From: Escherichia coli
GTDB taxonomy: Bacteria > Pseudomonadota > Gammaproteobacteria > Enterobacterales > Enterobacteriaceae
Assembly (NCBI RefSeq): GCF_001677475.2
Contig: NZ_CP015229.1
Reading direction: 5' to 3' (one strand)
DNA: 64,000 nt
Position numbers: made by a program. Positions 38,501 to 41,500 of the stretch are shown here, in pieces; within the stretch, counting starts at the first letter, position 1; each line of letters begins with the position of its first letter.

Positions 38501-41500
38501 GTACAGGTCGTCACTCATCCATTTGCTCCCTGCCTGGCTGCCCGCCACAATCTGTATCGGCTGAGTCAGGTACACTTCCGCCATATGGTAAGCATCATAG
38601 GTAATAATCTGGTTAAGGCTGCGCAAAGTAGCGTAACCCGGTGCTGTTGGGTACTGCGCGCGAGGGGTGTGGTAATACTCCCAGGCCTGACGCAGTTCTT
38701 CGTTCAGCGCATCGGACTCCTTCATTGGTGCCAGTGGCATAGTGGCGTATTCTCCGCTGCTAATATCGCTGGTTCGGGCGTTTGAACCCGCGTCAACGTA
38801 TGGTAGGGCATCAATAGATTTCACATTGTTTTCCCAACCATTACGGAACATCGAACCAATATTGACCGCACTAACGGTAGCGATGGCCTTGATGCGGCGA
38901 TCCTGAATGGCAGCATTGGCTGTATATCCTGCACCGGCACAAATTCCCATCGCACCAATTCGGGTATTGTCGACATAAGAAAGCGTTGTCAGGTAATCAA
39001 TCACGGCACTGACGTCTTCAGTACGAATGTATGGGTTTTCTAACTGACGCGGCTCGCCGCCGCTTTCACCTTGATAAGATGCGTCATAAGCAATAGTGAC
39101 AAATCCCTTTTCCGCCAGTTTTTCGGCATAGGTTCCGGCCGTTTGCTCTTTAACGCCTCCACCTGGGTGAGATACCACAATTGCCGGATACTGACGGGTT
39201 TCATCAAATTTTGGAGGGAAATAGATCACTGCAGACAAAGAGATGGTTGGATTATTGCTGTTAGTGAAGCTGACTTTATTATTCATCATTCCGTTCCTCA
39301 TGGAGTTGTCGGTTCGTTTTGACGGTTGGTGATATCACTATAGATATTGATCATTAAGTTGATTAGACCCTAAATTATGATTAGACCTATCATTTAAATG
39401 ATTAATAGATTGTATGGAGATACTGAATGAAGCGTGAAGAAATCGCTGATCTGATGGCGTTTGTCGTCGTTGCAGAGGAGCGTAGCTTCACTCGCGCAGC
39501 AGCCCGCCTGAGCATGGCGCAGTCAGCTTTAAGCCAGATAGTGCGCCGTATAGAAGAACGATTGGGATTGCGGCTTCTGACGCGAACCACGCGCAGCGTT
39601 GTACCCACTGAAGCGGGCGAGCATCTTTTGTCTGTTCTTGGCCCTATGTTGCATGACATAGATTCTGCCCTGACATCCCTGAGCGATCTGCAGAACCGCC
39701 CATCCGGGACAATACGTATTACTACTGTAGAACATGCAGCAAAAACGATATTGTTACCAGCTATGCGCACATTCCTGAAATCGCATCCTGAAATTGATAT
39801 CCAGCTTACCATTGATTATGGTTTGACCGATGTCGTTTCTGAACGTTTTGATGCAGGCGTCCGTCTGGGTGGGGAGATGGATAAAGATATGATCGCCATT
39901 CGAATCGGGCCAGATATACCAATGGCTATTGTTGGCTCACCGGATTATTTTTCTCGTCGAAGTGCTCCAACGTCAGTGTCACAATTAATAGATCATCAGG
40001 CAATTAATTTGTATCTTCCCACATCGGGTACAGCAAATCGCTGGAGATTAATACGCGGTGGACGTGAAGTTCGTGTTCGCATGGAAGGTCAGCTTTTACT
40101 GAATACGATAGACCTGATCATTGATGCTGCAATTGATGGGCATGGATTGGCGTATCTACCTTATGATCAGGTTGAGCGGGCTATTAAAGAAAAAAAACTG
40201 ATACGTGTTTTGGATAAATTCACACCAGATTTACCCGGTTATCACCTGTACTATCCACACCGTCGACATGCTGGCTCGGCATTCTCATTATTTATAGATA
40301 GGCTGAAGTATAAAGGTGCTGTTTAGCACTACTTGCTGATACATTAATTTAATTCTTCTCTTAACGTATTCTTAGTTCCTTTCAACGTTTTGGTCGTTTT
40401 TTATTCTTCGTACAATGGCGACAGATGCTGATTATGATACCGAAAACGGGTTTGAACGTGCGAAGCCCGAACGTAGTGTTCGGAGTTCTATGTGCTTTAC
40501 CGCATTTTGGAGACTATTATTTACACTAAATCTGATTTGATATATTGATACTTAAAACATTTGATGCTTCCTTTGTCACTTTTTTGATGGAAGTTGTTTG
40601 CATTTCTTTAAGGCGAAACAAATAATTACGCATCAATTTTAATGTCGGTTAGAGGGAAACTTATGAAGCACTCTGTTTCAGTCACGTGTTGTGCGCTGTT
40701 GGTCAGCAGCATTTCTCTTTCGTATGCAGCTGAAGTTCCGAGCGGCACAGTACTGGCAGAGAAGCAGGAGCTGGTGCGCCACATTAAAGATGAGCCTGCG
40801 TCGCTGGATCCCGCTAAAGCCGTGGGCCTGCCAGAGATTCAGGTCATTCGCGATCTGTTTGAAGGACTGGTGAATCAGAACGAGAAAGGGGAGATTGTCC
40901 CCGGCGTTGCGACTCAGTGGAAAAGTAATGACAACCGTATCTGGACTTTTACCCTGCGCGATAACGCAAAATGGGCGGATGGCACGCCGGTAACGGCGCA
41001 AGATTTTGTCTACAGCTGGCAACGTCTGGTGGACCCAAAAACATTGTCGCCATTTGCATGGTTTGCCGCGCTGGCGGGAATTAACAACGCACAGGCGATT
41101 ATTGATGGTAAAGCTACGCCTGACCAGCTTGGCGTCACCGCAGTTGATGCCCATACTTTGAAAATCCAGCTTGATAAACCGTTGCCGTGGTTTGTGAATT
41201 TAACCGCTAACTTTGCCTTCTTCCCGGTGCAAAAAGCCAACGTAGAAAGCAGTAAAGAGTGGACGAAACCCGGAAAACTGATCGGTAATGGCGCTTATGT
41301 TCTTAAAGAGCGCGTAGTCAATGAAAAACTGGTCGTGGTACCGAATACCCATTATTGGGATAACGCCAAAACGGTGCTGCAAAAAGTGACCTTCCTGCCA
41401 ATTAATCAGGAATCCGCAGCCACTAAGCGTTATCTCGCGGGGGATATTGATATCACCGAATCCTTCCCGAAAAATATGTATCAGAAGCTGTTGAAGGATA

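What the first reader, a model, noticed from the sequence alone, without database searches (positions are those of the whole stretch)
39360..39387. Direct repeats in the ycjY/pgrR divergent promoter
Two copies of TGATTAGACC spaced 18 bp apart lie between the divergent ycjY operon and the LysR-type regulator gene, a plausible autoregulatory or repressor binding region for that regulator.
Basis: inference. Interest (0 to 1): 0.3.

Follow-up and report, generated by a model that had tools for sequence, protein, structure and literature searches.

The report
Known PgrR operator in ycjY-pgrR spacer
The two repeated 10-base words are real and lie inside the already documented binding and self-repression region of the E. 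coli LysR-type regulator PgrR, but the best-conserved recognition element there is a neighbouring 14-base palindrome, so the finding is ordinary.

Summary
TGATTAGACC occurs exactly twice, at 39360-69 and 39378-87, 18 bp start to start, in the 137-bp spacer between ycjY (-) and pgrR (+). The repeat alone is not beyond chance: about 0.6 such repeats are expected per 64 kb and 2 were found.

Comparative analysis shows a conserved block of about 70 bp (39336-39406) flanked by variable DNA. In orthologous hydrolase/LysR cassettes from Enterobacterales to alphaproteobacterial plasmids:
- the arms of a dyad, ATCA-N6-TGAT (39389-39402), are invariant while its centre varies;
- copy 1 keeps GATTAGA;
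- copy 2 decays, with copy-to-copy identity of 10/10 in Escherichia, 7-8/10 in other enterics and 4-6/10 in alphas.

K-12 carries identical decamers. Published data on K-12 show that PgrR binds this promoter region (SELEX; DAP-seq enrichment 5632-fold) and represses itself.

My best reading is a PgrR operator with the layout typical of LysR-type regulators. The dyad sits at about -65 and a copy-1 site at about -38 from an inferred ycjY start, and the operator overlaps both core promoters. The finding is already known and of low interest.

The parts
39360..39369 (+). Decamer copy 1, TGATTAGACC. The core GATTAGA is conserved. It forms the left arm of the imperfect dyad ATTA-N6-AAAT and overlaps the candidate -35 hexamers of both promoters.
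   Evidence: 9/10 positions invariant in Enterobacterales and 7/10 across gamma and alpha orthologs.
39378..39387 (+). Decamer copy 2, TGATTAGACC. Exact only in Escherichia. It is TGATTGGACT in most other enterics and degenerate in alphaproteobacterial orthologs. Possibly an auxiliary half-site.
   Evidence: 5/10 positions invariant in Enterobacterales and 3/10 across gamma and alpha orthologs.
39389..39402 (.). Perfect 14-bp dyad ATCATTTAAATGAT (ATCA-N6-TGAT). Candidate primary PgrR recognition site (RBS). Overlaps the candidate pgrR -10 (TATCAT).
   Evidence: Arms invariant in all orthologs down to 60% protein identity, while only 1/6 centre positions is invariant.
39362..39375 (.). Imperfect dyad ATTA-GACCCT-AAAT. 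It is GATTA-N6-TAAT(C) in alphaproteobacterial orthologs. Candidate promoter-proximal (ABS) site, with its centre 27 bp from the RBS centre.
39337..39342 (-). Inferred ycjY -10 hexamer TATAGT. The aligned orthologs have TAGATT, TAGATT, TACCAT and TATATT. A conserved C-A start follows about 7 nt downstream, giving an inferred TSS near 39330.
   Evidence: Inference only; no TSS data were obtained.
39360..39365 (-). Position of the ycjY -35 hexamer (TAATCA, 3/6 match, 17-bp spacer). It is the reverse complement of TGATTA in copy 1.
   Evidence: Inference.
39364..39393 (+). Candidate pgrR sigma-70 promoter TAGACC-18-TATCAT. The -35 hexamer lies inside copy 1, copy 2 lies in the spacer, and the -10 overlaps the left arm of the dyad.
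   Evidence: 9/12 match. The same hexamers are printed for pgrR in PMC3946193.
39347..39375 (+). Alternative candidate pgrR promoter TTGATC-17-CTAAAT (CAAAAT in K-12; GATAAT at the aligned position in alphaproteobacterial orthologs).
   Evidence: Inference.
39336..39406 (.). Conserved non-coding block (phylogenetic footprint), interpreted as the PgrR operator plus two back-to-back core promoters.
   Evidence: The 64-bp core is identical to K-12 in 4482 of 5219 E. coli genomes.
39427..40326 (+). pgrR (ycjZ), a LysR-type regulator of 299 aa.
38369..39289 (-). ycjY, an alpha/beta hydrolase and first gene of the divergent operon.

Best explanation
The two decamers are components of a PgrR (LysR-type) operator of about 65-70 bp that spans the back-to-back ycjY and pgrR core promoters. 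The anchor of the operator is the perfect dyad ATCA-N6-TGAT at 39389-39402. Copy 1 supplies the conserved GATTA arm of a second, imperfect dyad (39362-39375), 27 bp away. Copy 2 lies between them and is probably an auxiliary contact specific to Enterobacterales. Measured from an inferred ycjY start near 39330, the dyad is centred at -65.5, the copy-1 site at -38.5 and copy 2 at -48 to -57. This matches the classical LysR layout of a recognition site plus an activation site. A bound PgrR oligomer covers the pgrR -35, spacer and -10, which gives negative autoregulation, and covers the weak ycjY -35, which gives control of the ycjY operon. Shown: the sequence features, their conservation, and (from the literature on K-12) binding to this region and autorepression. 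Inferred: which bases are contacted, the transcription starts, and the role of copy 2.
For: The decamers are exact and identical in K-12. The 39336-39406 block is conserved between variable flanks in 10 enterobacterial orthologous loci. The divergent hydrolase/LysR pair and the dyad recur on alphaproteobacterial plasmids at 60-74% protein identity. An ungapped alignment gives dyad arms 8/8 invariant, dyad centre 1/6, copy 1 7/10 and copy 2 3/10. The recognition-helix segment MAQSALSQIVRR is identical in E. coli, L017 and L018. It differs in L010, whose operator also differs. Minus-strand hexamers aligned with TATAGT keep T1, A2 and T6, and a C-A start follows. Literature: SELEX target ycjY/ycjZ; autorepression and a published PgrR site on its own promoter; DAP-seq fold change 5632 at pgrR; knock-down effects of +0.97 on pgrR and +0.60 on the ycjY operon. 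The closest solved relatives are the LysR-type proteins AphB and CrgA.
Against: No footprint or mutational data were available to me (Shimada 2013 is not held), so contacts to the decamers are inferred. The dyad is T-N10-A, not the canonical T-N11-A. The alignment was anchored on the dyad, which inflates the apparent conservation of its arms. Neither the decamer repeat nor the 14-bp palindrome is beyond chance in a single sequence. The ycjY start is inferred, and a published prediction places the ycjY -10 inside copy 1 instead. The measured effect of pgrR knock-down on the ycjY promoter was small and not called significant. Conservation of copy 1 could reflect promoter function rather than PgrR contact.
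Confidence: 0.6

Rival explanations
1. The decamers are mainly core-promoter DNA. TAGACC in copy 1 is the pgrR -35, and TAATCA (or TCTAAT) on the other strand belongs to the ycjY promoter. PgrR recognises only the dyad, and conservation of copy 1 reflects RNA polymerase contacts.
For: TAGACC-18-TATCAT scores 9/12 and is the pair printed for pgrR in an RpoD-holoenzyme SELEX study, which also places the ycjY -10 at TCTAAT within a decamer. Both hexamer positions are conserved.
Against: TAATCA (3/6) and TCTAAT (lacks A at position 2) are poor hexamers. By my count the only ATGATA and the copy-1 TCTAAT are 20 nt apart, not 19. In alphaproteobacterial orthologs copy 1 forms a clear dyad, GATTA-N6-TAAT(C), with the same arm spacing as the main dyad, which points to protein recognition. 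The two readings are not mutually exclusive.
Confidence: 0.2
2. The exact duplication is a lineage-specific coincidence. Copy 2 has no function of its own and resembles copy 1 only by drift within an AT-rich spacer.
For: About 0.6 such repeats are expected per window by chance. Copy-to-copy identity falls from 10/10 in Escherichia to 7-8/10 in other enterics, 4-6/10 in alphas and 1-2/10 in the most distant loci. Only 3/10 positions of copy 2 are invariant.
Against: Within Enterobacterales copy 2 keeps TGATT.G at a fixed 18-bp register, while the pgrR 5' leader 20 bp away is freely variable. A paralog upstream region (L025) also shows ATTAGA and ATTGGG 18 bp apart.
Confidence: 0.15
3. The repeats serve another factor, for example sigma-E holoenzyme (TCTAA on the minus strand resembles a sigma-E -10) or H-NS on AT-rich DNA.
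For: A strong RpoE-holoenzyme SELEX peak (17.2) is reported at the ycjY/ycjZ spacer. hns knock-down raises ycjY promoter activity.
Against: I saw no GGAACTT-like -35 at 16 bp from either TCTAA (by eye on the sequence). The motif co-varies with the regulator across orthologs.
Confidence: 0.05

Closest known systems
PgrR (YcjZ) target in the ycjY/pgrR spacer of E. coli K-12 (Shimada, Yamazaki and Ishihama 2013, Genes Cells 18:123; RegulonDB/EcoCyc)
   Same: It is the same locus and the same genes. K-12 has identical decamers and an identical dyad, and the 137-bp spacer differs at only 4 positions, none in the decamers or the dyad. PgrR binding to the spacer, repression of ycjY-ymjDC-mpaA and autorepression are reported.
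   Different: Nothing substantive. I could not read the primary paper, so I cannot say whether its binding site is defined as the decamers, the dyad or both.
Classical LysR-type operators with a recognition site near -65 and an activation site near -35 (e.g. BenM/CatM ATAC-N7-GTAT, CbnR, AtzR, OxyR; from my own knowledge of the family)
   Same: Divergent regulator and target genes. A high-symmetry site lies over the regulator's own promoter and a lower-symmetry site over the target -35. The conserved block is about 65-70 bp. The regulator represses itself.
   Different: The dyad arms are separated by 6 bp (T-N10-A) rather than the canonical T-N11-A. An extra direct copy of the half-site sits between the two sites. 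PgrR is so far described only as a repressor and no ligand is known.
AphB (Vibrio cholerae) and CrgA (Neisseria meningitidis), the closest solved LysR-type structures
   Same: Full-length sequence similarity, E 1e-30 to 7e-30.
   Different: Only the proteins were compared. Their DNA sites were not examined here.

Membership tests
LysR-type regulator operator (recognition site + activation site in a divergent promoter) | Lies between a LysR-type regulator gene and a divergently transcribed target | tested here: met
   pgrR (+) and ycjY (-) flank the 137-bp spacer. The PgrR homologs listed in the protein search carry PF00126 and PF03466.
LysR-type regulator operator (recognition site + activation site in a divergent promoter) | Dyad-symmetric recognition site of the T-N11-A type | tested here: not met
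   The best and only conserved dyad is ATCA-N6-TGAT, which is T-N10-A. I saw no conserved T-N11-A dyad in the block (by eye on the sequence). The symmetry criterion is met; the canonical spacing is not.
LysR-type regulator operator (recognition site + activation site in a divergent promoter) | Recognition site near -65 and activation site near -35 of the target promoter | tested here: inconclusive
   The centres fall at -65.5 and -38.5 if the ycjY start is near 39330. That start is inferred from a conserved TATAGT-type hexamer and a C-A start. No TSS data were found.
LysR-type regulator operator (recognition site + activation site in a divergent promoter) | Bound by the cognate regulator | not testable with these tools
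   Literature only: SELEX target ycjY/ycjZ and DAP-seq fold change 5632 at the pgrR promoter. Resolution is at the level of the promoter region, not individual bases.
LysR-type regulator operator (recognition site + activation site in a divergent promoter) | Negative autoregulation | not testable with these tools
   Reported by PPTP-seq and a tunable-TF strain in K-12.
LysR-type regulator operator (recognition site + activation site in a divergent promoter) | Site co-conserved with the regulator in orthologous loci | tested here: met
   The dyad arms are present in the enterobacterial orthologs aligned on the dyad and in all four alphaproteobacterial orthologs, with one mismatch in the most divergent locus, L010. 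Copy 1 GATTAGA is kept down to 69% protein identity. Copy 2 is only partly conserved.
Direct-repeat operator (response-regulator or iteron style) | Repeats spaced by whole helical turns (about 10-11 or 21-22 bp) | tested here: not met
   Start-to-start spacing is 18 bp in every ortholog that has both copies.
Direct-repeat operator (response-regulator or iteron style) | All repeat copies conserved as copies of one another | tested here: not met
   Copy-to-copy identity is 10/10 only in Escherichia, 7-8/10 in other enterics and 4-6/10 in alphas.
Sigma-70 core promoter elements | Two hexamers matching the consensus with a 16-18 bp spacer | tested here: met
   TAGACC-18-TATCAT matches 9/12. TAATCA-17-TATAGT matches 3/6 and 5/6.
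Sigma-70 core promoter elements | Transcription start mapped downstream of the -10 | not testable with these tools
   The two TSS supplements searched returned nothing for this locus.

The most novel reading that the evidence does not exclude
The operator, with its dyad at -65 and a GATTA site over a weak -35, has the geometry of a ligand-dependent LysR activator. It travels with a self-contained cassette (one or two alpha/beta hydrolases, with or without an NAD(P)-binding reductase, plus the regulator). That cassette is found with unrelated flanks in other enterics and on alphaproteobacterial plasmids. On this reading PgrR would primarily be an inducer-responsive switch for a mobile hydrolase module of unknown substrate. 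Its 'peptidoglycan recycling' label in E. coli would then reflect where the cassette sits (between mpaA and mppA), not its ancestral function.
Probability: 0.25. Interest if true: 0.4.

Novelty: already known. Interest (0 to 1): 0.15.

Why it matters
It matters little. The locus is the documented PgrR target of E. coli K-12, and the repeats add at most fine anatomy to a known operator. The modest added value is a testable map of that operator: the dyad ATCA-N6-TGAT as primary site, a copy-1 dyad over the ycjY -35, and copy 2 as a lineage-specific extra. The work also shows that the regulator, its operator and the hydrolase cassette form a unit shared between Gamma- and Alphaproteobacteria. This could help in finding PgrR's unknown ligand and YcjY's unknown substrate.

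Tried and rejected
- The primary paper (Shimada 2013) is not held. The DAP-seq source paper was not found. Full-text searches for the decamer or the palindrome gave only unrelated hits. Other papers mentioning PgrR give no base-level site.
- TSS data: the supplements of two E. coli TSS papers returned nothing for ycjY, pgrR or nearby coordinates. The RegulonDB paper has no held supplements.
- Further sites of the motif in the window: none for the decamer with up to 2 mismatches or the palindrome with up to 3 mismatches beyond chance. ATCA-N6-TGAT occurs at two extra places against about 1.2 matches expected by chance in the whole window. The copy-1 dyad pattern has no convincing second site.
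- Known RNA families: only a sub-threshold chance hit inside pgrR.
- Sigma-E promoter and IHF-site readings of the decamers were checked by eye. No proper -35 or consensus was found, so both were dropped.
- LysR homologs below about 60% identity on plasmids have different neighbours and were treated as paralogs, not used for footprinting.
- The homolog search returned only relatives of 87% identity or more in its visible list, so it did not add distant orthologs.

Full report
**Observation.** The window reads ...AAGT TGATTAGACC CTAAATTA TGATTAGACC TATCATTTAAATGATTAAT... The decamer sits at 39360-39369 and 39378-39387, 18 bp start to start, with no other copy at up to 1 mismatch in 64 kb. It lies in the 137-bp spacer between ycjY and pgrR. 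The ycjY CDS ends at 39289 on the minus strand, and a GAGGAA Shine-Dalgarno sequence supports that start. pgrR starts at 39427 on the plus strand. The window is an E. coli chromosome segment covering puu, psp, ycjX, tyrR, tpx, ycjG, mpaA, ycjY, pgrR, mppA and onward.

**Chance.** An exact direct repeat of this kind arises in 0.6% of dinucleotide shuffles of the spacer. Over the whole window, however, about 0.63 are expected and 2 are seen. The neighbouring perfect 14-bp palindrome is likewise unremarkable on its own: 4 in the window against 4.3 expected. Any claim of function must therefore rest on position and conservation.

**Conservation within Enterobacterales.** A scan of one genome per species found the divergent ycjY-like/pgrR-like pair in Citrobacter, Kluyvera, Pseudocitrobacter, Shimwellia, several Serratia and an Escherichia sp., with PgrR at 85-99% identity.
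- The spacers align with a conserved block at 39336-39406 between variable DNA. The pgrR leader 39407-39424 and the ycjY leader are freely variable.
- Copy 1 is TGATTAGAC in nearly all of these loci.
- Copy 2 is TGATTGGACT outside Escherichia.
- The palindrome ATCATTTAAATGAT and ACTATAG (39337-43) are essentially invariant.
- In E. coli itself, 4482 of 5219 genomes carry a 64-bp core identical to K-12. K-12 differs from the window at 39321, 39371, 39376 and 39413, none of which lies in the decamers or the dyad.

**Distant orthologs.** tblastn against plasmids found the same arrangement (one or two alpha/beta hydrolases, in one case followed by an SDR gene, divergent from the LysR gene) on plasmids of four alphaproteobacteria: Rhizobium tropici (74% protein identity), Agrobacterium fabrum (72%), Kozakia baliensis (69%) and A. 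pusense (61%). A gammaproteobacterial MAG at 58% has it too.
- All the spacers align without gaps when anchored on ATCA-N6-TGAT.
- Across window, L002, L008 and L017-L019, the dyad arms are 8/8 invariant, the dyad centre 1/6 (TTTAAA, TTGAGA, CTGAGG, CTGGAG), copy 1 7/10 (GATTAGA) and copy 2 3/10.
- Identity between the two copies falls from 10/10 in Escherichia to 7-8/10 in other enterics, then 6, 5 and 4/10 in alphas, and 1-2/10 in the most distant loci.
- In the alphas, copy 1 is the left arm of a second dyad, GATTA-N6-TAAT(C). E. coli keeps ATTA-N6-AAAT at 39362-39375, 27 bp centre to centre from the main dyad.
- L020 lacks the decamers and instead has a second TATCA...TGATA dyad.
- The recognition-helix segment MAQSALSQIVRR is identical in E. 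coli, L017 and L018. It is altered in L010, whose operator is also altered.
- Caveat: anchoring on the dyad favours its arms. Even so, an exact ATCA-N6-TGAT at the same place in four diverged spacers, with GATTAGA at a fixed offset, is not expected by chance.

**Promoters.** On the minus strand, ACTATA reads TATAGT. The aligned orthologs read TAGATT, TAGATT, TACCAT and TATATT (the last shifted by 1), all keeping T1, A2 and T6. A conserved C-A follows 7-8 nt downstream.
- From this I infer the ycjY -10 at 39342-39337 and a start near 39330.
- The -35 position is then TAATCA, the complement of TGATTA in copy 1, which is a weak hexamer.
- On that numbering the main dyad is centred at -65.5, the copy-1 dyad at -38.5, and copy 2 spans -48 to -57. 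This is the textbook LysR-type layout (family knowledge, from memory).
- For pgrR, the scan tool and a published RpoD-SELEX table both give TAGACC-18-TATCAT (39364-69 and 39388-93).
- An alternative is TTGATC-17-CTAAAT.
- The same published table gives ATGATA-19-TCTAAT for ycjY. By my count those hexamers are 20 nt apart, and TCTAAT lacks the key A2. I therefore prefer TATAGT.
- No TSS data could be retrieved.

**Direct evidence from the literature.**
- PgrR (YcjZ) is a LysR-type regulator. Its SELEX targets include ycjY/ycjZ, and its listed regulon is ycjG, ycjXF-tyrR and ycjY-ymjDC-mpaA.
- PPTP-seq found negative autoregulation, confirmed it with a tunable-PgrR strain, and cites a PgrR site on its own promoter.
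- The supplement of that paper lists a DAP-seq fold change of 5632 for PgrR at pgrR, against 4413 for LacI at lacZYA. It also lists knock-down effects of +0.97 on pgrR (significant), +0.60 on the ycjY operon (not significant) and +0.72 to +1.0 on ycjG.
- The primary paper is not held, so the published base-level site is unknown to me.

**Interpretation.** The region is the known PgrR operator. The most likely recognition elements are dyads with 4-5 bp arms separated by 6 bp. Occupancy would cover both core promoters. The rival explanations, which are not all exclusive, are that the decamers are core-promoter DNA only, that the exact duplication is coincidental, or that they serve another factor (sigma-E holoenzyme, H-NS).

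**Novelty.** The finding is already known at the level claimed, namely the binding and autoregulatory region of this regulator. The fine anatomy and the cassette's wide distribution are small additions.

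Noticed in passing
window 37660-38298 (-): The window has an intact 212-aa NAD(P)H-binding (SDR/NmrA-like) gene between ycjY and mpaA. 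In K-12 only the fragments annotated ymjD and ymjC remain, and some other E. coli genomes annotate it as a partial pseudogene.
   Followed up: partly
L002, L008, L017-L020: The unit (one or two alpha/beta hydrolases, with or without an NAD(P)-binding protein, divergent from the LysR gene) has unrelated flanks in other genomes: formate/nitrite transporter and MlaA in Citrobacter, radical SAM and MarR/FUSC in Serratia, IS elements and integrases on alphaproteobacterial plasmids. It behaves as a mobile cassette, and the link to mpaA, mppA and ycjG appears specific to E. coli.
   Followed up: partly
window 37464-37477: A further ATCA-N6-TGAT (ATCACTTTTTTGAT) lies in the 290-bp spacer upstream of mpaA. 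There is no GATTAG nearby. Four matches were found in the window against 1.2 expected, so it may be chance.
   Followed up: partly
window 43470-43500: The ynaI/ynaJ spacer holds CATTAGCTAACTAATCAATGCGTTGATTG. This is ATTAG-N4-CTAAT overlapping AATCA-N6-TGATT and resembles the PgrR site vocabulary. It is not among the published SELEX targets.
   Followed up: no
L027 (E. coli Z1323PEC0013), about 1730-2500: An IS1A element is inserted between copy 1 and copy 2, with a 9-bp target duplication GACCCAAAA. It separates the ycjY promoter and copy 1 from copy 2, the dyad and pgrR. This is a natural operator-split mutant.
   Followed up: yes
L026 (E. coli ET358), about 2289-3047: A deletion removes the 5' end of ycjY and the operator to the left of about 39380, leaving most of copy 2, the dyad and pgrR.
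   Followed up: yes
L022, L024, L025 (upstream of paralogous LysR genes): Paralogs at under 60% identity with different neighbours also carry GATTAG-type motifs upstream. L022 has the dyad CGATTA-N7-TAATCG and GGTCTAATGA. L024 has TTGATTAGAG. L025 has ATTAGA and ATTGGG 18 bp apart. This suggests a subfamily-wide half-site.
   Followed up: partly
window 39290-39426 (literature): RpoE-holoenzyme SELEX reports a high peak (17.2) at the ycjY/ycjZ spacer, and the paper calls ycjY and pgrR RpoE-dependent. I saw no convincing sigma-E -35/-10 pair in the spacer.
   Followed up: partly
window 39363-39393 (literature): The published ycjY promoter guess is printed as ATGATA-19-TCTAAT, but the two hexamers are 20 nt apart in this sequence and in K-12.
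   Followed up: yes
window 10277-10313: The only other exact direct repeat of at least 10 nt at 11-30 bp spacing in the window is GCAGCAGGTG, 27 bp apart.
   Followed up: no
window 49202-49217, 57018-57031, 63228-63243: Other perfect palindromes of at least 14 bp: AGGTTGCGCGCAACCT, ATGGTTATAACCAT and TGATTATTAATAATCA. The count matches the chance expectation.
   Followed up: no
E. coli 'plasmid' records: Several hits labelled as plasmids are records of 4.8-4.9 Mb, which are probably chromosomes mislabelled in the plasmid collection. True plasmid copies of the 88%-identity pgrR-like gene occur in Klebsiella.
   Followed up: no
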